32,000 bases of DNA from Candidatus Saccharimonadota bacterium (GCA_963677765.1 OY782392.1:810001-842000), one strand, 5' to 3'; numbered from the stretch's first letter, positions 4,081 to 31,758 are shown. Translations and numbers: made by a program. The notes: a model not told the origin generated them from the sequence alone.

Positions 4081-4431
4081 TTAACTCATTGCTTTAATAG
4101 CTTCTTCTTCAGTATCAACAGTAGGAACAATAGTTGTTATACCAACTAGTTCTAAAATATCTTTTACTCCTTCAGAACAGTTAGATATATGCATTTGACC
4201 TTCATTATCTTCGATATTTGAAAATACATCTGCTATATAACCAATTGATTTTGAGTTTAAATATTTTAATCCTGACATATTGAATACGATTTTTTTGTTT
4301 TCAAAACCACCAATTTCATCATATATTGTTTTAAATGTTTTATCAGCATTTGTTTCATCTAATTCTCCAGAGAATTCAAAAACTAATATACCATTTTCTT
4401 CTTTTTTATTTACTTCTATTAATGTTTCCAT
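4081..4431 (-). CDS. STAS-domain protein (anti-sigma-factor antagonist, SpoIIAA-like)
   Basis: 116-aa ORF intact even in the standard code. Pattern ...FEFSGELD...FNMSGLKYLNSKSIGYI...LELVGI... matches STAS/anti-anti-sigma architecture. Confidence 0.8.
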   Translation of the reverse strand: METLIEVNKKEENGILVFEFSGELDETNADKTFKTIYDEIGGFENKKIVFNMSGLKYLNSKSIGYIADVFSNIEDNEGQMHISNCSEGVKDILELVGITTIVPTVDTEEEAIKAMS

Positions 4432-7542: not shown

Positions 7543-8340
7543 ATGAAATTATTAATTTTTTGAGACATATATTGAAGAATTTGAAGAGCCTGATTAAAAA
7601 AAGAGTTAGCATGATTAAAATCAAAATATAATCCTGATTTTACAATAGCTAATGTTGATAATATAACTTCTTGAAGATGAGCTGTTGAAAAACATATATT
7701 AGAGATGAATAAAATATGAGTTGATATTATGACATGATGAGATCATATTGTAGATAATTATTCAAAAATAAAAGATTATTTGTCTTTAGATAACACCAAC
7801 TTACTTAGATTTGCTAACTTTTATGATAAAGATTTTGCATGAATATGACATAAAATTTTTGAAAAAAATTGAAAAAAAATTCTTGTAGTTCATTTGCAAT
7901 GAGAGGTTTTTATGCATAACAAAGTTTTAAATCCATTTATTACTATGGATGAAATATTATCTAGTTATGACAAATCCGAATATGATTGAGTTATTGTAGA
8001 TTTTCATAAAGAAGCAACAGCAGAATGATATTGATTAGTTCATTATTTAGATTGAAGAGTTAGTTTTGTTTATTGAACTCATACACATGTTCAAACAAAT
8101 GATGAATTTATTTTAAATTGATGAACATGATATATAAGTGATGTTTGAATGAATTGACCATTTTATTCAATTATATGAGCAGAATTTTCTAGTGTTAAAC
8201 CTAGATTTTTATCATGAATATCAAAATGAAAAATAGAACAGTCACTTGATAATACTTATTTAGTTTCTTGAGTATTTATTGAGTTAGATGAAAAATGAAA
8301 ATGTCTAAAAATAGAGAAAATTAGAATAAAGTCAAAATAG
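7543..8340 (+). CDS. ymdB: YmdB-like metallophosphoesterase (2',3'-cyclic-nucleotide phosphodiesterase family)
   Basis: 265 aa. MKLLIFGDIYGRIGR, NVDNITSGRG, VDFHKEATAEG, VYGTHTHVQTNDE and YISDVGMNGP resemble the B. subtilis YmdB motifs as I recall them. Stop TAG 8338-8340. Confidence 0.8.
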
Positions 8341-8372
8341 AAAAGTAAAAAATTTGCTTTTCTATTTTTTTT
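8337..8372 (+). terminator. intrinsic terminator
   Basis: 9-bp perfect stem atagaaaag/cttttctat, 11-nt loop, then a T-run. Confidence 0.65.
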
Positions 8373-8385
8373 ATTTATAATCCAC

Positions 8386-8399
8386 CTAACAATCGTTAG
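8386..8399. promoter_or_regulatory. inverted repeat CTAAC-N4-GTTAG, candidate TetR operator
   Basis: Perfect 5+5 palindrome 19 nt upstream of the TetR-family start codon. Relatively G/C-containing for this DNA. Confidence 0.3.
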
Positions 8400-8417
8400 T
8401 TAGATAATTTAAAAATT

Positions 8418-8945
8418 ATGAAAAAAGAAGAAATTTTACAAAAAATAGAGCATTTATTTTATGAAAAAAGTTATAAAGAAGTTTCTCTTCAAGATGTAGC
8501 TAATATTTTTGAAATTAAAAAATCTAGTTTATATTATTATTTTGATTCTAAAGAAGATATGTTTTTTGATGTTTTAGAATATTCATTTAATAAATATTTA
8601 AACTTTATAAAAGATCTTATATCTAGATGGAATAATAGTAATTTTCAGGAATTACTTATAGAGTTTATTAATTATTGAGACAGCGAAAAGAATGTATTTT
8701 TTAGAATAAATCAATCTAGTTACACATGAAGTGATAAATCTTTGGATTTAATTCAGTATAAACAAAAAATTATTTTTGATGAAATTCATAAAGCTTTTTA
8801 TGAAAAAGCATGATTCTCAAAAGAAAGAACTTATTTATTTTTAGTTTTAATAAATCAAACTTTTAATAATAATTGAGTTTACTGAAAATGTGAATTGAAT
8901 AATGAAAATATACCATCAGAAATTGAAAAAATATTTTTTAACTAA
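8418..8945 (+). CDS. TetR/AcrR-family transcriptional regulator
   Basis: 175 aa. N-terminal HTH ...YKEVSLQDVANIFEIKKSSLYYYFDSKEDMF... is the TetR_N signature. It continues past the standard-code TGA at 8679. Confidence 0.85.
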
Positions 8946-8953
8946 AAAAAATC

Positions 8954-10873
8954 ATGAAAAAAATCTTTATTATTATTTCTTTATTATTATTTCTTTCTTC
9001 TTGTTGAGAGATTGATGATAAAGTAGTGAAATATTATGAAACATCTATTGTATCAACATGATCTTTAGATAAAAATACTACTTATGTTTGATATACTGAC
9101 TCTTTTGATAGTATTTGATTATCTTTTAAATCTCCATGAAAAATAACAGCAATATATAAATGAATTGGTGATAGAGTTGTAGAATGAGAACTTTTAGCAG
9201 AACTTGATTGATTAGAAGCTAAAACTTGATATAGTTCTAGTTTAGATATTATAGCAAGCCTTAATAATTTAAAACAATCTACTTCTTTGTCTTATGATAA
9301 GCAAATAGAAGCTACAAGAGCTCAAATAAATCAATTAAATAAAGCTCTAGAAATGTCTGATATTTCTATATCATGAGCACAAAGTTGATTATCAGATGCT
9401 GATACAATAAAATCAAATCAAATTGAAACTATAGAAAATCAAATTTCACAAGCTGAACTTTGACTAGAAACTTCAAAAATAAATTATGATAATACTAAGT
9501 CTTTATTAGAAAAAAAAGAAACTGATATTTATACAAACTCAAAAAACTCTATTTCAAGTGCTAATACTTTATCTTCTAATGTTTTTGATTTCTTAGATAC
9601 TTTATTTGGTGTTAGTTCAGTCAATAAAAATAAAAATGATTCTTTTGAAATATATTTATGAGCTAGAAATTCTTCTCAAAAAATATCAACTGAGAATTTA
9701 ATAGATAATTGAATGAAAGATTTTTCTAATCTAAAAGAAAAATACTCAAATTTAGATAGTAATGAAAAAATTAAAGAAGCTTTAAATGAATATTATATAT
9801 TTTTTAATAATGATTTAAAAAATATTTTAGCTTCAGCATATACTACATTGGAAAACTCTATAGAATCATCTAATTTTAGTTCTTCACAAATAAATCAATA
9901 CAAATCAACTATTTCAGAATTTCAATCTAAAAATGAGCAAGTTATATTGTTTGTGAGTTGAAATTTTATGTTGGGTTTAAAATGAAGTTTAGATAATATT
10001 GATACTATACAAAGAGAAAAAAAATCTAGTTTAGATTTATTGCAAAAACAAATAGAAAATAGTGAAAAACAAATTGATATTTTAAAAAAATCTTTAGAAA
10101 CTTATAAGTCTCAATCAAGTTGAAATGTTAATCAAGCAAGTACTTGATTAGAACAAGCAAAAAAACAAAAAGAAATTGTTGAAAATCAAATAATAGAAGC
10201 AAATGCATGATTAGAGGCACTAATAGAAAAAAAGAATGCTTCTCTTAGTGAGATTGATACTCAAATTTCGCAAGCAAGAGCCTCACAAAATAATGCTTGA
10301 GCAATGATTCAAAATACAAAAATTTATTCAAATATATCAGGTATAATTACAAAAAAGATGTTTGATGTATGAGAAGTTGTATGAGCTTGAATTCCTGTTT
10401 TATACGTTAGTAATAGTAAAGATATAAAAATAGAATTAAATATATCTCAAGATTTAGCTGATAATCTAAAAGTTTGAGATATTGCAAAAGTTAAGATTGA
10501 ATGATTAAATGATTTATTTAATTTTGAAGTTTTTAAAATATATCCTTCAAAAGATGAATTAACTAAAAAAGTAACTATTGAATTATTTTATAATAATATT
10601 GATAATAGAATAAAACTTTGAAGTTATTCAAAAATATATTTTGATTTAAACAAATCAAGTACTTGAATTATAATTCCTAATACAGCAATTATATCTAAAT
10701 ATATGATTCCTTGAGTTTATGTTCTAAGTGATAATTGATTAGTTAGTTTTAAAAAAATAGAGATTATATCTCAAAATGATGATATTACTCAAGTTACTTG
10801 ATTAAATGTTTGAGATATGCTTATAACATGATGAAAAGATAATATTTATGACGGTGAAATTTTATCAAATTAA
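8954..10873 (+). CDS. efflux pump periplasmic adaptor (MFP/HlyD family) lipoprotein with very long coiled-coil hairpin
   Basis: 639 aa. Lipobox LLFLSSCG. N-terminal lipoyl-like strand (GKITAIYKGIGDRVVEGELLAELD). Long Q/E/K-rich coiled coil. C-terminal beta-barrel segments (SGIITKKMFDVGEVVGAG, IIPNTAII). Stop TAA 10871-10873. Confidence 0.8.
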
Positions 10874-23153: not shown

Positions 23154-23182
23154 ATATTATATATGGTGCCATGGCAGAGTGG
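23154..23182 (+). repeat. 29-bp exact copy of the tRNA-Cys upstream 11 nt plus tRNA positions 1-18
   Basis: ATATTATATATGGTGCCATGGCAGAGTGG is identical at 23154-23182 and 23354-23382. Confidence 0.9.
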
Positions 23183-23316
23183 CGATTAGGTAAGTATTAA
23201 TAGATGTAAAACGACGAATAGGAGTTTTAAAATCATTAATAGTCCTAGTGAGTGCGAAAGAGTCTGTAATGAAATGGAAGCGAATGAAGCGGACATCAGA
23301 GGTCTGAGCTCTGCAT
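23165..23316 (+). other. tRNA-Cys-derived, GC-enriched ~150-nt element (candidate structured RNA or decayed/disrupted tRNA copy); not a functional tRNA
   Basis: Starts with tRNA-Cys nt 1-18 and then diverges. I count 63 G+C in its first 150 nt, clearly above flanking spacers. Long-range pairing GCAGAG (23174-23179) with CTCTGC (23309-23314). Local stems TAGGA/TCCTA (23219-23223 / 23243-23247) and CGGAC/GTCTG with a 7-nt loop AUCAGAG (23290-23306). C-GAAA-G tetraloop at 23255-23260. No T-arm or 3' acceptor. Confidence 0.4.
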
Positions 23317-23353
23317 TAAACTAACGTTTCAAAAAAATAAATTGTTGATATAA

Positions 23354-23382
23354 ATATTATATATGGTGCCATGGCAGAGTGG
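23354..23382 (+). repeat. second copy of the 29-bp repeat (genuine tRNA-Cys 5' end and upstream 11 nt)
   Basis: Identical to 23154-23182. Confidence 0.9.
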
Positions 23383-23438
23383 TCATGCAGAGGTCTGCAA
23401 CACCTTGTACAGCGGTTCAATTCCGCTTGGCACCTCCA
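23365..23438 (+). tRNA. tRNA-Cys (anticodon GCA), CCA encoded
   Basis: Manual cloverleaf: acceptor GGTGCCA/TGGCACC; D-arm GCAG..TGC; anticodon stem GAGGT/ACCTT with loop CTGCAAC; T-arm AGCGG-TTCAATT-CCGCT; discriminator T then CCA. Confidence 0.9.
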
Positions 23439-23440
23439 TA
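23427..23440 (+). repeat. attL-like direct repeat = 3' end of tRNA-Cys (TTGGCACCTCCATA)
   Basis: Exact 14-mer repeated at 30847-30860. Similarity continues imperfectly (ACAAAAC vs TCAAAAAC). Confidence 0.85.
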
Positions 23441-23629
23441 ACAAAACATTCGTTGAGACTTTTTACCCATCTAGATTTTAGGATAGCTAAAGGAAAAAAC
23501 GAATAATATAATGAATTTAAAAACAAAAAAAGTACGAGTTAAAACTTAGTTTTGCTTGTGCTTTTTTTATTGTATGATTGATTAAAATTTAATATAAATT
23601 TAATATTTTACTGAATATAAAGGGAAAAA

Positions 23630-23657
23630 TTGCTTTTTTTGTTTAAAAGATTATAGT
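23630..23657 (+). promoter_or_regulatory. candidate sigma70-type promoter for the SAVED/CD-NTase pair
   Basis: TTGCTT-N16-TATAGT, 33 nt upstream of the ATG at 23690. Confidence 0.3.
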
Positions 23658-23689
23658 GAAAGGTATATTTATATGATTATCTATGTGTT

Positions 23690-24571
23690 ATGCTTGAATT
23701 CCTTGAACAATTTTTTGATTTTCTAAAGGATGCTAAACTTTTACGGGGTTTAATTATTTGATTAATAACTTTTATATTAAATTATTATTTATTTAGAAAA
23801 GATACAGATATATGAATTATTAGTACATATTCTGGTAAATCCATTCCTACCAAAAATCATATTAATAATGCTATCCATAGTCTTATTTTTAGAAATAGAA
23901 AAGATTATATTATTATGGATCAAGATTTAAATTCTAAATGATATACTAACGATACTTTAGATACTTTTATTACTGAAAATACATCACAAATAAAAAAACT
24001 TAGTAACTCAAATAATGTATTATCATTATTTTTGTTTGCTCATATGCCTTTAATTGTTTATTTAGGTTTTAAAATATGAAAATCAAAGAAAGTTGAGTTA
24101 TATCATAAATTAAGAACAGAAGATAAAAATGAGTGGAAATGGAAAAATATTATATTTAAAAATATATATAAAAATAAGTGGGAATATATTATTAATAAAA
24201 ATTTAGATGATAGTAAAAAAGACGTAATATTAGATATTGATATTTCTTTTCCTATTCACTGAAAAGACTTAATAGATTATACGAATAAATCTTATTATAG
24301 AATAGAGTTGATATGAAAAGATAATGAATTAATTAGAAATTCTTTTTTAAGATATAAATATCAATTAACAGAATTTTATAATATTGTTGAAAAAGCATTT
24401 TATGAAATAGAAGAAAAATTATGAAGTAATTGTAATATACATTTATTCTTAACAACTCCTAATCCTTTCTCATTTATTATATGACAACAAATACATATTA
24501 ATTGACCAAAAGTGTTAGTTTATGATAAAAATAATGAGTGAAATTATGTTGTGATGAAAATTATAAATTAA
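23690..24571 (+). CDS. CBASS-type effector candidate: N-terminal single TM helix fused to SAVED-like (double CARF-like) sensor domain
   Basis: 293 aa, verified codon by codon (11 in-frame TGA, stop TAA 24569-24571). TM helix LLRGLIIGLITFILNYYLF. Two repeated nucleotide-sensor-like motifs, VLSLFLFAHMPLIVYLGFKIG and NIHLFLTTPNPFSFIIGQQIH, as in the two halves of SAVED. No recognisable enzymatic domain. Confidence 0.65.
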
Positions 24572-24583
24572 CAATAAAATATA

Positions 24584-25921
24584 ATGAAATTAATAAGTTA
24601 TTTTGATGATTTTTTGAAATCAGAAGTAAATTTAGATCAAACAAGATTAGATACCGCAAATAGTAGAATAGAAACTATTACAGGGTTTATTGAAAATGAA
24701 AATTTATTTAGTAGGATATTTAAAAAGTCTACTCCTCAAGGTTCTTTTAAACATCAAACAATTATAAAACCTGTAAATGTTGATGATGAGTTTGATGTAG
24801 ATTTATTAATAGAATTAAATGAAATTGTAGGTTGGGAACCTAAGCATTATATTAATAATTTATATAGTATATTTAATGATAGTGATAGATATAATGATAT
24901 TGTAGAAAAAAATACCAGGTGTATAACATTGAATTATAAATCTGATTTTCATATGGATTTAGTACCTTGTATAAAAAAAATAGATAATTATTATATATTT
25001 AATGAAGAAGAAAATAGTACTGAAATAACTGATTGATATTGATATGCTGATTGGTTTAAAGAAAAAAATGATTTAACAAATTGAAACTTAAAGAAAGTTG
25101 TAAGATTATTAAAATATTTAAGAGATTATCATAATTCATTTGATATTAAATCAATACTACTTACTACTTTAATAGCAAGAGAAGTAAATGAAAATGAAGA
25201 TTATCAGGATGTACCATCAACATTAAAAATATTAATTAATAGTCTATCAGGAAAATTATACAATATTATATATTTAGATGACTTAGATTTATCTAACCCT
25301 GTATTACCTGATGAACAATTTGATAGACATATAAATCAAGATATATATGAGAATTTTAGAAATGAAATATTAAAACTTAATATTTTAATAGATGAAGCTT
25401 ATAATGAAACAGATAAAAATGTAAGCATAGAGCTTTGGAAAAATATATTTTGAGAGAGTTTTTGAAAATCAAATAGTAAAAATAGTATTGTAAAGATAAT
25501 AGCAAATGAATGGATGTGAGAGAAACCAGTTTGGGAGAAAAAACTTATTGGTAGAGTAGTAGTAAATTGTAATTACTATACTAGAATAAGTAAATATAAT
25601 ACACAAAAAATAACTGTAAAAAATTTACATACTTTTGTTATATGACAAAAAGTAAAGTTTTCAGCTTCAGTTTACAATATATCTTGACCTTATGAGGTTA
25701 AATGGCAAGTAGTAAATACTTGAGATGAGGTTAGGTGAGATAAGGAAAAAATGAGATGAGATTTTTTTAATTGAAGAGATGAAAATCTTAATGATGTAAA
25801 AAACTCACTTACAAATTGGGAGAAAATCTGATATAAATGAATTCATTGGATAAAGTGTTATATAATAAAAAATAATTTTATTGTATGAGAAAGTGAAAGA
25901 TTTTATGTAATTGTAGATTAA
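24584..25921 (+). CDS. SMODS-family nucleotidyltransferase (CD-NTase-like cyclic oligonucleotide synthase) with ~150-aa beta-rich C-terminal extension (AGS-C-like sensor domain)
   Basis: 445 aa. Pol-beta NTase catalytic pattern GSFKHQTIIKP...DEFDVDLLIEL plus third acidic residue in FHMDLVPC. Downstream ...LKKVVRLLKYLRD is typical of CD-NTases. The C-terminal 300-445 is rich in short beta-like segments (VVVNCNYY, VKFSASVYN, YEVKWQVVN, HWIKCYIIK). Starts 12 nt after the SAVED gene stop. Confidence 0.75.
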
Positions 25922-25956
25922 CTAATTTTATTTAATTAGTATTTATTAAAGATATA

Positions 25957-25965
25957 TGATATAAT
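25957..25965 (+). promoter_or_regulatory. extended -10 element TGATATAAT
   Basis: Perfect TGnTATAAT 28 nt upstream of the ATG at 25993. Preceded by a weak A/T hairpin (25921-25940) after the CD-NTase stop. Confidence 0.4.
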
Positions 25966-25992
25966 CATAAATATATAAAATAATATTTTATT

Positions 25993-26919
25993 ATGGAATT
26001 AGAAATAAATAGGATTTCTCTATATTTAGCTTGAAAATTACCTCCATATTATAAACCATTTGATAAAATGGAATTTATGGAAGAATTAATGTGAATATTT
26101 TCTGATGAATTTTCAGAAAGTACTTTTAATTTTATACAAAATCAATCAAAAACAGACGAGCAGTTTTATTCTATGTCTTTAAATAAAGCTAAAAGAATTA
26201 ATAAAGCTAAATTAGTTTTATTTTTAGATAAAATTAATGTTAAAGATGATGCAAGAAGTATTATTCAAGATAGAAAAGAATCTGAAATAAATTGAAAAGA
26301 AGAATTACAATTAAAAATCAAAGAATTAACAAAACCAATAATAATCACAGAATGAAAAACAGATGTAAAAATCTTAAATATTGCTTGGAATAAACTATAC
26401 CCAGATTTAGAATGTCCTTTTAATATAATAGAGAATTGAATAGAAAAATGAAATGAATTACCAAAAAATGGGAGTGCAGAGTGACTTAAAAATCAATTAA
26501 ACTATAGTACTATATATTGAAAAGATAGGTTAATAATATGACTTTTTGATAATGATAAAGAATGAAATGAGCAATTTAAATGATTATATAAAGATTTATT
26601 TGAGAAATACGATTTATATAAAGATATAAGAAAACATAAAGATTATAATATTTATTGATTGTTATTGCAGGTACCTGAGTTTAGAAAAAATTATGTAAGT
26701 TCAGATGATATTAAGCAAAGGTATTTTCAAATTGAACATTATTTTTCTGATGAAATTCTTAATGAAAACAATATGAAAAAGAAGGAAATAATTAAGTGAA
26801 CTTGAATTTTTGAAATATGATGAAGTAAAGACTCTTTTTCAAAATCAGTAGAAAAATTAGAATTAAAAGAATTTGAGAATTTTAAAATATTATTTGAAAG
26901 AATATTAAAGTATATATAA
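25993..26919 (+). CDS. Toprim-domain protein, DUF4435/AriB-like C-terminal nuclease domain with unrecognised ~115-aa N-terminal domain
   Basis: 308 aa. Toprim Glu motif PIIITEGKTDVKIL (Gly is TGA). DxD motif IIGLFDNDKEG. Downstream QIEHYF resembles the ENYL motif of DUF4435 proteins. No partner ABC/AAA ATPase gene nearby. Confidence 0.6.
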
Positions 26920-26928
26920 AAAATAATA

Positions 26929-26958
26929 AAACTCTAGACTAAAAAATCTAGAGTTTTT
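26929..26958 (+). terminator. intrinsic terminator
   Basis: 9-bp stem aactctaga/tctagagtt, 8-nt loop, T-run. Confidence 0.7.
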
Positions 26959-26979
26959 CTTTTAAATGACCTTAAATTT

Positions 26980-27008
26980 AAGGGGGTAAAAAGTCTTAAT
27001 GCCCCCTT
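26980..27008. other. isolated G/C-run hairpin AAGGGGG-N15-CCCCCTT in a ~300-bp non-coding stretch
   Basis: 7-bp stem containing five consecutive G:C pairs, very unusual for this AT-rich DNA. Only three T follow, so it is a poor terminator. Confidence 0.5.
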
Positions 27009-27214
27009 TGATATATCCATTTTGAAAATTTAGAAATTTTACGAATTTTAAATAAGGGCTTTCCGCTAAGGTTAGCTTTTTTTAGTGTCTATAAAAAGTT
27101 CAATAATTAGTTTTTTAATGCCAACCGTCTTTTGTTCTTTATTTAGTGAGTTTTGGCTTTCATATAGGGAAGAATAGAGTTCAATAATTCTGTTTATTAT
27201 AAAAAAATATATTT

Positions 27215-27243
27215 TTGACAATATTTACTTTATATGTTTTAAT
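27215..27243 (+). promoter_or_regulatory. candidate sigma70-type promoter for the Mrr-HRDC gene
   Basis: Consensus -35 TTGACA, 17-nt spacer ending in TG, then TTTAAT. 35 nt upstream of the ATG at 27278. Confidence 0.45.
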
Positions 27244-27277
27244 ATATTAAATATATTAAAACTTTATTTAATACATA

Positions 27278-28177
27278 ATGAAAATAAATAAACTAGACTT
27301 AGCTAAAGTTATAAGTGACTTTATGTTTTTAAATGAGGAAAATCCTGAAGAAAAAGCTAAAGTTGTTTTTAAAGTCAAACATAAGCTAACTGCACATTGA
27401 TTTGAAAAATATATGCAATACTATTTTGAAAAAATAAAAGGCTATAAAGTAACTCTTAATTGAAGAACTTATGAGTTTGATTGAGGTATTGATTTAAAGT
27501 GAATAAAACAAGAAAATTGAGTTAATAAATACTTAGTGGTGCAATGTAAGAAATACTCAATTAAAGATATAACAGAGGAGAATATAAGAAGTTTTCAATG
27601 AGGTACAATACATAAATATGCTCAATATAAAGAAGATACAGAAACTTATTATATTACTACTTCAAAATTTACTGATAGAGCTGAAAAGTTTGCTAATGAA
27701 GTATGAATAAAAGCAATAGATTTTTTTCACATATATAAATTACAGAAAGTTTATTCTGTAGAAAAATTTGAAGAAGATTTGAAAAAAGAGGAATGAATAA
27801 GAGAATATAATAAATCTTTCGAAGAAGACCAAATGATTTTAGATCTTGATAATCAAGTATATGAAACAATTTGAGTTACAAATAATGAGGTATTTCAATT
27901 GTTAAAACAAGTAAGAAGAGATTATTCTCATCATAAACAATTAAGGTTATGAGATATTGCTAGAAATGATACTTTAGAATTATTATCTAGAAAAAGACCT
28001 CATAATTTACAAGCATTAAAAGAAACAATATCTCATTTATCTACAAGAGAGCAAAATAAATTAATAAAACACTGAACAATTTTTGTAGAAAGATTAAAAT
28101 ATATTGATAATGAAGAATGACATCAAGAACTAATAGAAAAATCATTTTTTAGTAAATTGGTAGAATTTATAAAATAA
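27278..28177 (+). CDS. Mrr-type restriction endonuclease (PD-(D/E)xK, Mrr_cat) fused to HRDC-like C-terminal domain
   Basis: 299 aa. FDGGIDLKG...YLVVQCKKY...ETYYITTSKFTDRAEKFA is the Mrr catalytic-domain pattern. The C-terminal VFQLLKQVRRDYSHHKQLRLGDIARNDTLELLSRKRPHNLQALKETI resembles HRDC helices. Confidence 0.7.
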
Positions 28178-28178
28178 A

Positions 28179-28208
28179 AAACCCTATGTGAATTTTTCAT
28201 AGGGTTTT
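28179..28208. terminator. bidirectional intrinsic terminator
   Basis: 10-bp perfect stem aaaccctatg/catagggttt, 9-nt loop, flanked by A-run and T-run. Confidence 0.7.
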
Positions 28209-28218
28209 ATTATTATTT

Positions 28219-28581
28219 TTATAAAAACTCTTTAATAAAAATAAATATTCAAAATATTATAAATAATGTTAATATAAAATAATAAATATAATCATAAGAT
28301 TTAGATTCAATTATTTCCTTATTTATTTTATTTGTATCTTTAATTTCAATATTATTTAATTCATTTATGTTACTAATATTATTTAGATTTATATTATAGC
28401 TTTCTTTGGGTAATAAAAATTTCCAAAATCTATATGTTATATAAATGATACTAACAGTAAAAAATATTATAAAAGCATAAATTATTAAGCTAAGACTTAT
28501 GGATGAAATAATTACATCTGTAAATTCATTTCAGTTATTTATTGGAGTATTAAATAAATTTTCAGAAATCGTTCTTATCAT
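28219..28581 (-). CDS. small 2-TM membrane protein
   Basis: 120 aa. ATG 28581-28579, stop TAA 28221-28219. Two hydrophobic helices separated by an N/K/I-rich linker. Extremely AT-rich, so coding status is less certain. Confidence 0.45.
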
Positions 28582-28607
28582 AATGTTTAAATTAATTATA
28601 AAAATTT

Positions 28608-29273
28608 TTATTTATTTTTAACATATTTTTCATTTATAATATTTCAATACTTTATTTTTTTTATATGATTTATATTTCATATTTTTTTATTATGAGATAT
28701 TATGTAACTAAAAAATATTATTGTTTTAGCTATATCTTGTCATGAATAAAAATGAAAATCGTTATTAATTATTATTTCTAAAACTTTTTTATATATGAAT
28801 CTATATGATCATCAATGCCTTAAAATATCAAGTATTATGTCATCATTGTTTTCAAAAAATAATATATAATAAATATTATTTTTTATTTTTTCATCAAAAA
28901 ACTTTTTATTATAATAATTACTTTCATTATTTTTATTACTATAAATGAAATTTTCTATATCTTTTAATGTATCTAATGCACTCTGTATTTTAATTGAATA
29001 ATAATTTTTCTTATACTTCCTATATATAAAATTAAGTTCAAAAAATATTATAATAGTAATATTAATAATAAATAATTCATATAAGTTTAAATTTATAAAC
29101 TGTTCTTTGAATATGAATAAAGATAAACTAAAAACTAAAAAATATATTAAAAATCTTTTTTTAAATTTTTTATTATTTTTTAAAATATTAATGTCTTTAT
29201 CTACTAAAGATACATCAATCATAATTCCTGATATAAAGAATAATAATATTAAACCTACCAAAAAGTCTCACAT
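28608..29273 (-). CDS. membrane protein (3 N-terminal TM helices plus ~130-aa soluble domain)
   Basis: Extends track ORF 28812-29261 through two TGA codons (..RHGGSYRF..) to TAA at 28610-28608. An ATG at 29273-29271 lies 4 codons upstream of the TTG used in the track. Confidence 0.5.
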
Positions 29274-29395
29274 ATTGTATTTAATAAAAAATAAACATAT
29301 TTTAATATTACTATATAATATAATAAATTCAATTTTAAGTTTGTAATTTGAAATTTATTTATAATAATATATATATTATTTTTTACTATTTTTTT

Positions 29396-29791
29396 ATGAA
29401 ACTTATAATAAATTTTATTAGATATATTTTATTTATAATATTTTCATTTTTAGCTTCTGAGTTAATATTTTATTTATTTACTTTACTTTTAGGATTTATA
29501 TCATCACTTTCAATTTTTTGGTTAATAATATTTTTTATTTTCCTTTTTTGAGCTGTTAGTTGAGTTTTATATTTATTTTCTTGATTATTAATATATTTAA
29601 TATGACTTATTTCACCTTCAAAAATTATATGATCTTACATATTTTCATTTATTATATTAATATATTTTTCTTTATATATGTATGATATAATTTTTATTAA
29701 TGAATGAATAATATTTAAAATATTTATTTCTTTATTATTTAGTTATTTTACTTTAATTCTTATTTTCTTTTCTTTTAATAATGAAAATTAA
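29396..29791 (+). CDS. small polytopic membrane protein
   Basis: 131 aa from the ATG at 29396. Continues past the TGA at 29552. Almost entirely F/I/L/Y. Overlaps the next gene by 11 nt. Confidence 0.45.
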
Positions 29792-30134
29792 TATAAATAA
29801 TAATAAAAAAATTATTATATTAAATTTAATAGCTATTATTTTACTAATAGGAACTTTATTTGATTTTCCATATTTTTATTATCAAATATTAAGATGGTAT
29901 ATATTTATAGCTTTTATATTCATAATCTATAATTTGTATTTAATAGATAAAATTAAATTTAACATATTAATATATATTTATTGATTTATTGCAATAATTT
30001 TCAATCCTATATCACCATTTTATTTTTGATGAGATATATGGTTTATTATAGATATAATTACAGTTTTTGTTATAGTTTTTAATATTTTTTACTACAATTA
30101 TATATCATCTAAAATATCTCTTAATATTCAATAA
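29781..30134 (+). CDS. small 4-TM membrane protein
   Basis: 117 aa. ...YYQILRWYIFIAFIF...IAIIFNPISPFYFGGDIWFIIDI... Continues through TGA codons to TAA 30132-30134. Confidence 0.55.
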
Positions 30135-30143
30135 TCTTTATTT
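30105..30143 (+). repeat. 39-bp direct repeat, copy 1 (3' end of the 29781-30134 gene plus 9 nt)
   Basis: TCATCTAAAATATCTCTTAATATTCAATAATCTTTATTT. Copy 2 at 30808-30846 differs at 2 positions. Confidence 0.85.
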
Positions 30144-30234
30144 CAATTATATTTATTTAAGTGTTATGGGTTAAACTTTTTCATGTTAGTTTATGTTATG
30201 TTTTAATAATGTAAAGTTTATGGTAAAAATTTTC

Positions 30235-30265
30235 AAAAAGACACGGAACTATCCGTGTCTTTTTT
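30235..30265. terminator. bidirectional intrinsic terminator (G/C-containing stem)
   Basis: agacacgga-acta-tccgtgtct with an A-run on the left and a T-run on the right. Confidence 0.7.
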
Positions 30266-30737
30266 ATATTCATTTTTTTATTCTTATTGAAAATATATCT
30301 CATTTAAAGTGTTTAATTCAATCATAGTCATGATTTATATTATAAAATGTTACTTCAATTATCATTCAATCTACTTTCCAAGAATAAGATTTTAATGAAT
30401 TATTTGTTCATTCTATATTCTCAGTTTTATAATATTCTCATAAGTCTTTTTTTATGTCTTCTAAACTAGATTTTATATTTATATTTCAATAAATATATCA
30501 ATTATAAAGCTCCCATTCTGAATTAACTCTAGAAGGAAAAAATATTCAATCTACTTTATTATATTTATTATATTCCAATCAAAATCACAAATTTTGATAA
30601 CTTCAATTTTTACTTTCTCATACCAAATCTACAACTGACTCTCTAGTATCATTAAGTTGAATTTTAAATCTATATTCATTATTAACACTGCAAGAATATA
30701 ATAGTAATAATATAGTTAATATAAATATTTTTTTCAT
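30264..30737 (-). CDS. hypothetical lipoprotein
   Basis: 157 aa. MKKIFILTILLLLYSCS lipobox. The soluble remainder has many TGA-encoded Gly. Stop TAA 30266-30264. Confidence 0.6.
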
Positions 30738-30807
30738 AATGATTTAATTAATTAATATTTTTTTTATAATACTTTTTAAAATATAAAAATCAATTTATAA
30801 TTCTACC

Positions 30808-30846
30808 TCATCTAAAATTTCTCTCAATATTCAATAATCTTTATTT
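30808..30846 (+). repeat. 39-bp direct repeat, copy 2 (orphan 3' gene fragment abutting the attR-like repeat)
   Basis: Encodes ..SSKISLNIQ* like copy 1 but has an in-frame TAA about 14 codons upstream. Ends 1 nt before TTGGCACCTCCATA. Confidence 0.85.
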
Positions 30847-30860
30847 TTGGCACCTCCATA
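30847..30860 (+). repeat. attR-like direct repeat (orphan copy of tRNA-Cys 3' end)
   Basis: TTGGCACCTCCATA is identical to 23427-23440. No T-arm or other tRNA sequence precedes it. Confidence 0.85.
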
Positions 30861-30870
30861 TCAAAAACAA

Positions 30871-30899
30871 AAAAACCGACTATTTTTAGTCGGTTTTTT
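30871..30899 (+). terminator. intrinsic terminator, probably the ancestral tRNA-Cys terminator
   Basis: Stem ccgacta/tagtcgg extended by A:T pairs, loop tttt, T-run. 10 nt after the attR-like repeat. Confidence 0.7.
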
Positions 30900-30958: not shown

Positions 30959-31330
30959 ATGTGAATAGAATCTCAAGAAGCTAATTCTCTTACAGAAATA
31001 ACGAATAATATAAAGGAAAATCTAATATCTAGATGAACAATAGATATTGAAAAAATTGATTATTATATTAATTTTATATTAAAAGGTAAATTTAGTGAAT
31101 GAAAATTACAAAATTTATACGATAAAATAAGTAATAGTGATGATAAAAAAGTAAATGAAGTTATAGATTTTCTATATTTTATGGGTTATATGGAAAAAGA
31201 ACTAAATGACATAAAATCATCTCTTGATAAAGCTCCAGAAAAAATAAAAAAAGCTATTAGTGAACAAGCAGAAATGGAAAATAAAATTGAATTAGAAGAA
31301 TTTGAAAAATTTATGAATGATAATTTATAA
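30959..31330 (+). CDS. hypothetical alpha-helical protein
   Basis: 123 aa. Starts ATG-TGA (MGIES...). Charged and helical. No family recognised. Confidence 0.5.
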
Positions 31331-31371
31331 AAAATTATTATTATTTAAATCTTATATATTAAAAATATAAA

Positions 31372-31758
31372 ATGGCAATTGAATCAGTAAATCATACAGT
31401 TGAAGCTGTTAATAACCTTAATAATGATATAAAGGGCTTAGAGAATAAATTAAATGATATAAAAGAGAAAACATGATTGTTCTCAGAATATTCTCCATCT
31501 GAAGGTATGGATAAAGTAATAGATACTATAAGTGATTTTATTAAAGAAAAATATGGAACTATAAATATTATATCAAATGCTTTGTCTAATTGAATTGAAA
31601 ATCAGGAGGTAAATCAGATTTTAACTAGTTTGGTATCTAAGATGGATATTTTAATATCTACTCTAAATGACAATTCAACATGGGTTAGTGGTTGATCAAA
31701 AGATAAATTTAATATGTTACTTGCAGAACTTAATACTGTTAAATCAAAAATTAGCTAA
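31372..31758 (+). CDS. hypothetical alpha-helical protein
   Basis: 128 aa (MAIESVNHTVEAVNNL...). N-terminus loosely similar to the preceding gene product. No family recognised. Confidence 0.5.

What the first reader, a model, noticed from the sequence alone, without database searches (positions are those of the whole stretch)
23427..30860. Integrase-less ~7.4-kb genomic island inserted at the 3' end of tRNA-Cys, bounded by an exact 14-bp direct repeat
TTGGCACCTCCATA (the last acceptor-stem bases, discriminator, CCA and 2 nt) occurs at 23427-23440 inside tRNA-Cys and again at 30847-30860, with no tRNA body in front of the second copy. This is the classic attL/attR footprint of site-specific integration into a tRNA gene. 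A strong terminator sits just after the right copy, consistent with the displaced original tRNA terminator. Everything between is accessory-type cargo (defence genes and tiny membrane proteins). I could not find any tyrosine or serine recombinase ORF on either strand. The element is therefore either a fossil, mobilised in trans, or uses an unrecognised recombinase. Mobile islands are little documented in table-25 lineages.
Basis: partly seen in the sequence, partly recalled or inferred. Interest (0 to 1): 0.7.

Follow-up and report, generated by a model that had tools for sequence, protein, structure and literature searches.

The report
Decayed serine-recombinase island at tRNA-Cys
The repeat is real, but the 7.4-kb "integrase-less island" is the eroded remains of a small mobile element that a serine recombinase inserted into the end of the tRNA-Cys gene, and a separate CBASS anti-phage cassette was inserted into it later.

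Summary
TTGGCACCTCCATA occurs only at 23427-40 (end of tRNA-Cys) and 30847-60, and a strong terminator follows the right copy. The organism reads TGA as Gly (code 25, Gracilibacteria-like). The right copy is an attR: 121 nt around it are 81% identical to the distal junction of a 4.8-kb element in a relative (L005), and another relative (L004) has the matching empty site. The recombinase is not unknown. Window 27016-27263 (minus strand) is a frameshifted 3' stub of a large serine recombinase (LSR; E=7e-22). Intact relatives of this LSR sit reading into tRNA-Cys in at least four other lineages. The LSR's attP lies inside its own gene, and the common core is the last 12 nt of the tRNA. The interval is composite. 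Sister strains (96.7% identical) lack 23439-27015, which holds a TM-SAVED effector, a CD-NTase cyclase and g26. That cassette has 61-nt terminal inverted repeats, a 4-5-bp flanking duplication and no transposase. A further ~0.7-kb segment carrying g32 is bracketed by duplicated distal arms. Verdict: a fossil LSR element that seeded a defence-gene hotspot. It is a new variant of a known kind and of moderate interest.

The parts
23365..23438 (+). tRNA-Cys(GCA), intact. This is the target gene (attB side of attL).
   Evidence: ARAGORN. Rfam RF00005, 59.9 bits. It sits directly after the g22 orthologue in all relatives.
23427..23438 (+). Left copy of the 12-nt common core TTGGCACCTCCA (last 12 nt of the tRNA).
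   Evidence: 'MEVP' in LSR tails is the antisense of TGGCACCTCCAT and marks the point where free-form and integrated-form tails diverge.
23439..27015 (+). Module A: a 3.58-kb cassette inserted between the tRNA's CCA and the LSR stub. It is flanked by TCCA(T) at 23435-23439 and 27016-27020.
   Evidence: Absent from sister-strain contigs L011/L019 and L012, which join window 23439 to window 27016.
23438..23498 (.). Left terminal inverted repeat of module A.
   Evidence: the repeat finder I1: 61 nt, 70% complementary to 26954-27014. 43 of 61 positions match, against a null mean of 20.1 (sd 3.9, maximum 39 in 200,000 random pairs). An exact 13-mer, AGACTTTTTACCC, is present in both arms.
23690..24571 (+). 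g24: CBASS effector with an N-terminal transmembrane segment and a SAVED sensor domain.
   Evidence: Pfam PF18145, 7e-25. PADLOC SAVED/effector models, 2e-24.
24584..25921 (+). g25: CD-NTase (SMODS) cyclase with an AGS_C domain.
   Evidence: Pfam PF18144 2.4e-33 and PF18134 8e-19. PADLOC cyclase PDLC00793, 3e-124.
25993..26919 (+). g26: 308-aa protein of unknown family. Motifs that look Toprim-like (IIITEGKTD ... FDNDKEG) were seen by eye only.
   Evidence: No hit in Pfam, PADLOC, NCBIfam, PHROGs or PDB sequences.
26928..26957 (.). Bidirectional terminator hairpin closing the g24-g26 operon.
26954..27014 (.). Right terminal inverted repeat of module A.
27016..27263 (-). Pseudogene stub: the last ~70-83 codons of a large serine recombinase, with one frameshift near 27078-27081. 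It ends exactly at the former tRNA junction.
   Evidence: tblastn with P0066: residues 388-450 match 27263-27075 (67%) and residues 449-470 match 27081-27016 (77%), E=7e-22. L005 C-terminal ORF, E=2.5e-8. DNA is 72% identical to L005 10705-10879.
27278..28177 (+). g27: Mrr-type PD-(D/E)xK restriction endonuclease with an HRDC-like C-terminus.
   Evidence: Pfam PF04471 2e-15; HRDC 2e-4, below the curated cutoff. PADLOC PDC-S02, 2.5e-10.
28219..30134 (.). g28 (28219-28581, -), g29 (28608-29273, -), g30 (29396-29791, +) and g31 (29781-30134, +; DUF6804): small membrane proteins. GC content is 12-15%.
   Evidence: g28 is 66-68% identical to a gene in L005.
30093..30143 (.). Extra copy of the element's distal (P) arm, overlapping the 3' end of g31.
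   Evidence: 88% identical over 51 nt to 30796-30846. The homology stops exactly where the core would begin.
30264..30737 (-). g32: lipoprotein (weak DUF3862 hit), lying in the ~0.65-kb segment between the two arm copies. A terminator is at 30235-30264.
30757..30846 (.). Distal (P) arm of the LSR element. Its reverse complement encodes the LSR's free-form C-terminal tail, KNKDYGILREILDEVEL*.
   Evidence: Window 30757-30875 is 81% identical over 121 nt to L005 15397-15516, E=9e-26. Amino-acid-level conservation is seen in three copies, and the reconstructed attP gives a continuous ORF.
30847..30858 (+). Right copy of the 12-nt core: the displaced original 3' end of the tRNA (attR).
   Evidence: The L005 counterpart is TAGG-ATCTCCA.
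30859..30899 (+). Native tRNA-Cys 3' flank: A-rich spacer plus terminator hairpin and T-run.
   Evidence: The same layout directly follows CCA in L004, L014, L015, L016 and L018. In L005 the corresponding flank matches L004's native flank.

Best explanation
The interval 23439-30858 is the eroded remnant of a small integrative element with later additions.

The element family. The element belongs to a family, found in Gracilibacteria-like (code 25) genomes, that integrates with a large serine recombinase (LSR) into the 3' end of tRNA-Cys(GCA). In intact members the LSR gene lies at the tRNA-proximal end and reads towards the tRNA. Its attP lies inside the last codons of the LSR gene. The common core is the last ~12 nt of the tRNA (TTGGCACCTCCA), so integration regenerates the tRNA. 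Integration also replaces the LSR's C-terminal tail with antisense-tRNA codons. It pushes the original tRNA end and its terminator to the far end of the element, forming attR.

Shown for this window. (1) attR, made of a conserved distal arm, the 12-nt core and the native terminator, lies at 30757-30899. (2) Only a frameshifted 3' stub of the LSR survives (27016-27263, minus strand), so the island cannot move on its own. (3) A 3.58-kb cassette (23439-27015) lies exactly between the CCA and the stub. It carries a type I CBASS pair (TM-SAVED effector and cyclase) plus g26, has 61-nt terminal inverted repeats and a 4-5-bp flanking duplication, and is missing from sister strains. (4) The distal arm is duplicated around g32.

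Inferred. (a) The LSR catalysed the original integration. (b) g27-g31 are the cargo of that element or later accretions. (c) The CBASS cassette is a non-autonomous unit, either transposon-like or recombinase-dependent, that was mobilised in trans.

The locus therefore works as a defence-gene hotspot seeded by a now-dead LSR element.
For: Repeat and terminator.

Code 25, and island genes that use TGA-Gly as the flanks do.

LSR stub: (E=7e-22). It ends exactly at the junction.

LSR identity: L020's 489-aa protein has Resolvase (3e-18) and Recombinase (1.7e-13) domains. Its N-terminal domain is nearest to PDB 3G13 and carries the YCR(K/V)STD serine motif.

Same chromosomal context: the order RecF-GatC-g21-g22-tRNA-Cys with an LSR reading into the tRNA is seen in L005/L007, L020, L023-25 and L026/27. 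Eighteen LSR clusters have C-terminal tails that are antisense tRNA-Cys.

Empty and occupied pair: L004 1-10698 aligns with L005 27-10709, and L004 10693-10773 aligns with L005 15493-15573.

Window attR: it is homologous to L005's attR arm (81% over 121 nt, E=9e-26).

attP inside the ORF: the reconstructed window attP gives one continuous ORF...FLNFQNGGAKNKDYGILREILDEVEL*. In the sister subfamily, free-form tails (P0041, P0043, P0044) and integrated tails diverge right after MEVP, which is the antisense of TGGCACCTCCAT.

A second complete element: L026/27 ends with ACCTCCA plus spacer plus terminator.

Module A: absent in two independent sister-strain assemblies. Its inverted repeats coincide with those boundaries.

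Sister strain: it retains a 95-nt stub fused to a native GNAT gene.

Hypervariable content after the tRNA in every relative.
Against: - No empty site for the whole island was found in the window's own species. The empty/occupied proof comes from a related species pair.
- Cargo genes are not shared between the window and L005's element. The one shared gene (g28) lies outside L005's attR.
- In L026 the repeat is only 7 nt, and L023's distal end was not reached.
- No free-form record exists for the window's own LSR subfamily. The coding tail is inferred from three arm copies.
- The reconstructed attP shows no strong dyad symmetry.
- No recombinase activity has been tested.
- Module A has no identified transposase or recombinase, and only one copy was seen, so its mobility is inferred from anatomy alone.
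- The arm duplication around g32 is unexplained.
Confidence: 0.8

Rival explanations
1. One 7.4-kb island integrated as a unit at the tRNA 3' end by a tyrosine-type integrase using a 14-bp core. It now lacks any recombinase sequence and is mobilised in trans or by an unrecognised enzyme.
For: There is an exact 14-bp direct repeat with the tRNA end and a displaced terminator. No intact recombinase ORF is present. tRNA 3' ends are the usual targets of tyrosine integrases (PMC9262239).
Against: An LSR stub sits inside the interval at the former junction. The homologous attR arm belongs to an LSR element in L005. Sister strains lack only 23439-27015, so at least two events occurred. The last 2 nt of the 14-mer come from different sources. 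No tyrosine integrase lies next to tRNA-Cys in any of the relatives examined.
Confidence: 0.05
2. Module A (CBASS plus g26) is ancestral. The sister strains lost it by a microhomology-mediated deletion between the two TCCAT pentamers, and selection kept only deletions that leave the tRNA intact.
For: Only 5 bp of identity flank the segment, which is typical of illegitimate deletion. Sister strains have clearly suffered other deletions at this locus: the stub is shortened to 95 nt and fused to GNAT.
Against: In intact elements of four other lineages the LSR's last codons abut or overlap the tRNA with nothing between, so tRNA|LSR is the ancestral state. The segment's ends are 61-nt inverted repeats that terminate exactly at the indel boundaries. 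That fits an insertion of a discrete unit, not a random deletion.
Confidence: 0.08
3. Hotspot turnover by homologous recombination only. The region downstream of tRNA-Cys is exchanged between strains through flanking homology after DNA uptake. The LSR stub and core copy are incidental passengers and not the cause of the island's boundaries.
For: Each of the four relatives examined over about 10 kb downstream (L004, L005, L009, L010) has different genes after tRNA-Cys; the metagenome loci checked (L015, L016, L020) lack the window's genes too. L015 has a recombinase-less AbiE cassette between duplicated copies of the tRNA end plus terminator. The left end of module A (TAACAAAAC) resembles the native flank (TATCAAAAAC).
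Against: The 12-nt core copy, the conserved arm and the stub occupy exactly the positions predicted by LSR integration, and joining them restores an ORF. The L004/L005 pair differs by a precise element-sized insertion.
Confidence: 0.07

Closest known systems
Large-serine-recombinase integrative elements and prophages (phiC31, Bxb1, A118, phiRv1, R4)
   Same: The recombinase has a Resolvase catalytic domain with the serine motif followed by a Recombinase domain and a long coiled-coil-rich C-terminus. The common core is short. By my own recollection, not checked here, known cores run from 2-3 bp up to about 12 bp for phiRv1 and R4. The recombinase gene lies next to one att site.
   Different: The target is the 3' end of a tRNA gene, which the element regenerates. 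[quoted passage not shown] The close family gives no PF13408 Zn-ribbon hit. The elements are small (~5 kb) and are not recognisable phages. The host uses code 25.
Staphylococcal SCC elements (CcrAB/CcrC serine recombinases at the 3' end of rlmH/orfX). This comparison rests on my own knowledge and was not tested here.
   Same: A serine recombinase integrates at the 3' end of a conserved housekeeping gene and preserves it. Direct repeats of about 15 bp result. Composite arrays and recombinase-less remnants ('pseudo-SCC') accumulate accessory cargo at one hotspot.
   Different: The target there is a protein gene, not a tRNA. There is no sequence relationship beyond the LSR superfamily. No attP-in-ORF arrangement is known to me for Ccr.
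tRNA-targeting tyrosine-integrase genomic islands and prophages (P4-like islands and others)
   Same: Integration is at the tRNA 3' end, with a direct repeat containing the tRNA end and a displaced remnant plus native flank at the far end. Decay into integrase-less islands is common.
   Different: The recombinase family is different: serine, shown by the stub and the relatives. The core is 12 nt, compared with the 25 bp or more typical of Int-Y. No arm-type sites or Xis are evident.
attP-within-gene systems: SSV1-type integrases (my own knowledge) and integration-dependent immunity of mycobacteriophage BPs (PMC9262239)
   Same: attP lies inside a coding sequence, so integration alters the C-terminus of the encoded protein. 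In BPs the attB is also a tRNA 3' end.
   Different: Those systems use tyrosine integrases. In BPs the gene that is altered is the repressor. Here it is the serine recombinase itself.
Type I CBASS (CD-NTase plus SAVED-fused effector)
   Same: The cyclase matches PADLOC model PDLC00793 end to end (3e-124). The adjacent effector has a SAVED sensor and an N-terminal transmembrane segment. No Cap2/Cap3-like genes are present.
   Different: It is carried on a 3.6-kb cassette bounded by inverted repeats, in a code-25 genome. It is accompanied by an unassigned 308-aa protein (g26). No paper in the library pairs CBASS with Gracilibacteria.

Membership tests
Large serine recombinase (LSR) integrative element | N-terminal resolvase-type catalytic domain with a nucleophilic serine | tested here: not met
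   In the window this part of the gene is deleted; only the last ~83 codons remain. It is met in intact relatives: L020 PF00239 3e-18, motif IIYCRKSTD aligned to 3G13. The window therefore holds a remnant, not a functional member.
Large serine recombinase (LSR) integrative element | Recombinase domain (PF07508) followed by a Zn-ribbon and coiled-coil C-terminal region | tested here: inconclusive
   PF07508 is present in relatives (1.7e-13). PF13408 is not reported for any close family member (P0032-P0081), though it is for more distant ones. The window stub aligns to the extreme C-terminus only.
Large serine recombinase (LSR) integrative element | Element bounded by attL and attR that share a short common core, with an empty attB in relatives | tested here: met
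   Window: 12/12-nt core at both ends. L005 (occupied) versus L004 (empty). The window's attR arm is homologous to L005's. L026: 7-nt core plus displaced terminator.
Large serine recombinase (LSR) integrative element | Recombinase catalyses attP x attB recombination at a central dinucleotide | not testable with these tools
   Needs in vitro or in vivo recombination assays.
Genomic island at a tRNA gene | Variable presence among close relatives at a conserved locus | tested here: met
   Upstream synteny is conserved and tRNA-Cys is present in all relatives, but downstream content differs in each. Sister strains lack module A and have replaced the remainder.
Genomic island at a tRNA gene | Compositional or codon-usage deviation indicating foreign origin | tested here: inconclusive
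   GC falls to 12-15% at 28.5-30 kb, against 21.7% overall. However, g24-g27 use TGA-Gly as heavily as core genes do, so donors were also code-25 organisms.
Type I CBASS | CD-NTase (SMODS) cyclase gene | tested here: met
   PF18144 2.4e-33. PADLOC PDLC00793 3e-124 over residues 1-444. The GS...DxD motif is visible in the sequence.
Type I CBASS | Adjacent effector with a nucleotide sensor domain, and no Cap2/Cap3 or HORMA/TRIP13 accessory genes | tested here: met
   g24 SAVED 7e-25 with an N-terminal hydrophobic segment. No accessory-gene hits were found in the interval.
Type I CBASS | Signal synthesis and phage defence activity | not testable with these tools
   Requires experiments.
TIR/TSD transposon (module A) | Terminal inverted repeats at both ends | tested here: met
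   61-nt arms with 43/61 matches; none of 200,000 random pairs reached 43.
TIR/TSD transposon (module A) | Short target-site duplication | tested here: inconclusive
   TCCA(T) flanks the insertion relative to the sister strain. The same pattern would arise from a recombinase crossover core or from microhomology.
TIR/TSD transposon (module A) | Encoded transposase, or multiple copies sharing the TIRs | tested here: not met
   No transposase family was found in g24-g26. The TIR 13-mer occurs only at the two ends in the window and in none of 36 loci. I therefore do not file module A as a member of any transposon family.

The most novel reading that the evidence does not exclude
This Gracilibacteria LSR family has evolved an integration-state switch. 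Because attP lies inside the recombinase gene, integration into tRNA-Cys swaps the enzyme's conserved C-terminal tail (…KDYGILRDILDEIEL or …VSELYDNI..DLDDLK…) for antisense-tRNA-encoded residues. This could control directionality without a separate RDF. The occupied tRNA-Cys end would then serve as a capture site where recombinase-less defence cassettes are inserted in trans. Examples are the TIR-bounded CBASS unit here and the AbiE unit in L015.
Probability: 0.25. Interest if true: 0.7.

Novelty: new variant of a known kind. Interest (0 to 1): 0.5.

Why it matters
It turns an apparent "integrase-less island with an unknown recombinase" into a testable system with three parts.

1. A family of large serine recombinases (at least 45 protein clusters, seen in at least five genomic lineages) targets a tRNA gene. 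Serine integrases are generally reported not to use this class of site. The att sites are predictable, and attP is embedded in the recombinase ORF.

2. The window gives strain-resolved evidence that code-25, ultra-small-genome bacteria gain and lose defence systems (CBASS, an Mrr-type nuclease, AbiE) at one hotspot.

3. A CBASS cassette bounded by long inverted repeats but lacking any mobility gene points to trans-mobilised defence cassettes.

LSRs with defined 12-nt cores and natural tRNA targets could also be useful as genetic tools for Patescibacteria, which currently have few.

Tried and rejected
- Six-frame (code 25) Pfam scan of the whole interval. It recovered the frame +0 domains but missed DUF6804 in frame +1, which scores 1e-17 alone. 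Long X-masked strings therefore lose sensitivity, so I abandoned it for the minus frames and relied on individual ORFs.
The table-11 150-aa fragment of the cyclase and P0026 were not on record.
- The single genome-contig scan with the LSR returned one 28%-identical hit in a Gammaproteobacteria MAG. The viral scan returned one 25% hit. Neither was informative.
PDB-sequence, PHROGs, NCBIfam and PADLOC searches gave nothing for g26, g28, g29 or g30.
- I first read the 95 nt after the sister-strain tRNA as the 'native terminator'. I rejected this once it proved to be LSR coding sequence and the scanner did not call it.
- I looked for an LSR stub at module A's left end. Only the antisense-tRNA part aligns.
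- I looked for dyad symmetry in the reconstructed LSR attP. None was convincing.
- I looked for displaced tRNA-end copies in L023 and L020. None lay within the sequence held.
- I compared cargo between the window and the L005/L026 elements. No homology was found except g28.
- P0041's LSR contigs turned out to be a conjugative-plasmid-like context with no tRNA-like site.

Full report
**1. The observation**

The window has one tRNA, tRNA-Cys(GCA), at 23365-23438. TTGGCACCTCCATA occurs exactly twice, at 23427-40 and 30847-60. There are no further hits at up to 2 mismatches, where 0.05 are expected. The 12 tRNA-derived bases alone are expected 4e-5 times per strand. Nothing tRNA-like precedes the right copy. 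A 13-bp-stem hairpin with a T-run follows it at 30870-99, in a region with 6 terminator-like sites against 0.4 expected.

The DNA is 21.7% GC, and TGA is a sense codon. Table-11 ORFs are shattered (longest 210 aa, against 1099 aa when TGA is read as sense). TGA falls on the invariant glycines of the Walker A motifs of MutS, RecF and TsaE. This is code 25, and flank-protein homologues are labelled Candidatus Gracilibacteria.

**2. Gene content between the copies**

Genes were called under code 25.

| Gene | Assignment | Evidence |
|---|---|---|
| g24 | TM-SAVED effector | PF18145, 7e-25 |
| g25 | SMODS + AGS_C cyclase | PADLOC PDLC00793, 3e-124 |
| g26 | 308 aa, no family | no hits |
| g27 | Mrr_cat nuclease, weak HRDC | |
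| g28-g30 | small membrane proteins | no family |
| g31 | DUF6804 | |
| g32 | lipoprotein | |

Searches are. g24 and g25 form a type I CBASS pair. No ORF is a recombinase. g24-g27 use TGA-Gly as heavily as core genes, so any donors were also code-25 organisms.

**3. Comparative context**

Orthologues of g22, the gene just upstream of the tRNA, gave a graded series of relatives. In all of them the order AcrB...MscS-g18-RecF-GatC-g21-g22-tRNA-Cys is conserved. What follows the tRNA differs every time.

"Simple" relatives (L004, L014, L015, L016, L018) have CCA, a 15-20-nt A-rich spacer, a hairpin and a T-run. The window's right copy has exactly this layout after it.

**4. A recombinase is there, as a stub**

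L005/L007, L020, L023-25 and L026/27 each have a large serine recombinase on the opposite strand, reading into tRNA-Cys. It carries Resolvase and Recombinase domains. Its N-terminal domain is nearest to PDB 3G13 and has the YCRxSTD serine motif.

Window 27263-27016 (minus strand) aligns to the last ~83 residues of family member P0066. Identity is 67% and 77% across one frameshift, E=7e-22. The window reads INRIIELYSSLYESQNSLNKEQKTVGIKKLIIELFIDTKK / KKLTLAESPYLKFVKFLNFQNG. P0066 reads INKIIELYSSLYESQKLLNKEQSTVGIKKLIIELFIDTKKELSIAESPYLKFIKFLNFWNGGA.

Eighteen LSR clusters have C-terminal tails that are simply antisense tRNA-Cys. The family is therefore habitually found integrated at this gene. 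It comprises more than 45 clusters at 50% identity or higher.

**5. The right copy is an attR of that element family**

Window 30757-30875 is 81% identical over 121 nt (E=9e-26) to L005 15397-15516. In L005 this arm is followed by TAGG-ATCTCCA, a decayed copy of L005's own tRNA end (TAGGCACCTCCA). After that comes a spacer and terminator that match L004's native post-tRNA flank.

L004 and L005 are collinear up to the tRNA end (L004 10698 / L005 10709). They resume at L004 10693-10773 / L005 15493-15573. This is a clean empty/occupied pair for a 4.8-kb LSR element.

A second complete element (L026/27, about 5 kb) ends with ACCTCCA, a spacer and a terminator before a PheS-like (phenylalanyl-tRNA synthetase domain) gene. 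The 7-mer is expected 0.05 times.

**6. attP lies inside the LSR gene**

I joined the window's distal arm, the core and the stub to reconstruct attP. The result is one uninterrupted minus-strand ORF ending ...FLNFQNGGAKNKDYGILREILDEVEL*. The other arm copies encode NKDYGILRDILDDI* and KKKDYGILRDILDEIEL*, so they are conserved at the amino-acid level.

In the sister LSR subfamily, integrated records end ...MEVP|SGLEPLYTVLQT (antisense tRNA). P0041, P0043 and P0044 instead continue ...ME(V/A)P|..VSELYDNI..DLDDLK..., which is a conserved alternative tail. MEVP is the antisense of TGGCACCTCCAT. The common core is therefore the last ~12 nt of the tRNA, and integration swaps the enzyme's tail.

Reconstructed sites:
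- attB = ...GGTTCAATTCCGC·TTGGCACCTCCA·TATCAAAAACAAAAAAACCGAC...
- attP = ...CAATATTCAATAATCTTTATTT·TTGGCACCTCCA·TTTTGAAAATTTAG...

**7. The interval is composite**

Two independent sister-strain assemblies were recovered: L011/L019 and L012, 96.7% identical over 1.3 kb. They run through the tRNA to window 23439 and continue at window 27016-27109 (97.9%). They therefore lack 23439-27015 (g24-g26). Only TCCA(T) is repeated at the junctions.

That segment has 61-nt terminal inverted repeats at 23438-98 and 26954-27014, with 43 of 61 positions matching. None of 200,000 random pairs reached 43 (null mean 20.1, maximum 39). The arms end exactly at the independently defined boundaries.

In intact elements nothing separates the CCA from the LSR's last codons. 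tRNA|LSR is therefore the ancestral state, and the CBASS cassette is a later insertion of a discrete unit. It has no mobility gene, and only one copy was seen. The enzyme that inserted it is unknown.

The sister strain keeps only 95 nt of the stub, fused to a GNAT gene. That gene is native chromosome in L004 (69% identity, 5.6 kb from its tRNA). The two strains have therefore decayed independently.

Finally, the 51 nt left of the right core (30796-30846) are repeated at 30093-30143, the end of g31, at 88% identity. The homology stops exactly where the core would begin. These two copies bracket g32. This suggests a second event or tandem element, but I cannot resolve it.

**8. Mechanism and confidence**

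Shown:
- attL and attR with a 12-nt core
- the LSR stub
- the homologous arm
- the empty/occupied pair in relatives
- the attP-in-ORF geometry
- the strain-specific cassette bounded by inverted repeats

Inferred:
- the LSR performed the integration
- g27-g31 are its cargo or later accretions
- module A moved in trans

Overall confidence is 0.8. The weak points are:
- no empty site for the whole island was found in the same species
- the cargo is not shared with L005
- g28's homologue lies outside L005's attR
- no biochemistry has been done

**9. Comparison with what is known**

The literature in the library states that tRNA attB sites with long cores are the province of tyrosine integrases. 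[quoted passage not shown]

No paper pairs Gracilibacteria with serine recombinases or with CBASS. Genomic islands in Patescibacteria are reported only generically (PMC12455944).

Functionally, the closest analogue I know (my own knowledge, not tested here) is SCC. There, a serine recombinase integrates at the 3' end of a housekeeping gene, and composite arrays and recombinase-less remnants accumulate. The attP-within-gene feature recalls SSV1 integrase and BPs integration-dependent immunity, both of which use tyrosine integrases.

I rate this a new variant of a known kind, with interest 0.5.

Noticed in passing
window 23154-23382: An exact 29-nt direct repeat (11 nt of upstream sequence plus tRNA-Cys nt 1-18) occurs at 23154-23182 and 23354-23382. 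It brackets a 171-nt segment with 33% GC. That segment is 98.8% conserved in sister strains, more than the flanks. A 79%-identical copy (109 nt), also preceded by a degenerate tRNA 5' copy, lies upstream of tRNA-Cys in the distant L023/L024 lineage. It is absent in L004 and L005. The predicted fold has z=-2.7. No Rfam family matches. It could be an unknown small RNA or an old footprint on the 5' side of the tRNA.
   Followed up: partly
L015 (Ga0247839_1005205), reoriented coordinates 7892-9620: The tRNA-Cys end plus its whole terminator is repeated 1.66 kb downstream (about 50 nt, imperfect). The repeat brackets an AbiEii toxin (PF08843, 1e-16) and a putative AbiEi partner, with no recombinase. 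The distal arm (TTCAATACTCC...) resembles the window/L005 arm. This is another recombinase-less defence cassette at the same site.
   Followed up: partly
window 4081-4431 (-), gene g5 (STAS / anti-sigma-factor antagonist): All 9 glycines are encoded by GGN and none by TGA, whereas neighbouring genes use TGA for roughly 80-100% of glycines. The protein is identical in three other assemblies whose neighbouring genes differ (one tested neighbour, AcrB, is 94% identical).
   Followed up: no
L028-L036 (LSR P0041, 66% identical to the tRNA-Cys LSRs): The same LSR family occurs on a conjugative-plasmid- or ICE-like element with relaxase, a T4 coupling protein, an N6/N4 methyltransferase and tyrosine integrases. 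It has the free-form C-terminal tail and a diverged core (MEAP), and no tRNA lies nearby.
   Followed up: partly
LSR family P0032-P0081; L020 residues ~255-330: Close family members have no PF13408 (Zn-ribbon) annotation and no cysteines where the zinc ribbon of LSRs normally lies. More distant relatives (36% identity or less) do carry PF13408. This may be a zinc-less DNA-binding domain.
   Followed up: no
window 30093-30143 vs 30796-30846: A 51-nt direct repeat (88% identical) of the element's distal arm brackets g32 and a terminator. The upstream copy forms the 3' end of g31 (...SSKISLNIQ*), and the homology ends exactly at the arm/core boundary. It may be a remnant of a tandem element or of a secondary recombination event. 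It remains unexplained.
   Followed up: partly
window 28219-28581 (g28) and L005 16292-16654: This 120-aa two-TM protein is 66-68% identical between the two genomes. It lies inside the window's island but about 0.8 kb outside L005's attR, next to PemK and a Type ISP restriction enzyme. It may travel independently within the hotspot.
   Followed up: no
window 26040-26049 (inside g26, codons 16-19): ACCTCCATAT, which is the tRNA end plus 3 nt and is identical to the right-copy context, occurs within the g26 coding sequence. The 7-mer is expected 0.026 times in this stretch. It could be chance or a relic junction.
   Followed up: no
window 30959-31758 (g33, g34): The two genes after the native terminator begin alike (MGIES.../MAIES...). 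g34 has a single match among 5.8 billion proteins (P0026, 98% identical), apparently the same gene read with TGA as Trp. The right flank may itself be strain-specific.
   Followed up: partly
L026/L027 3911-4981, L020, L023-25: A 352-356-aa protein of no known family is conserved across LSR elements: 79% identity with L020 and 35% with L023-25. It is a candidate core (replication?) gene of the element family. Pfam and PHROGs give no hit.
   Followed up: partly
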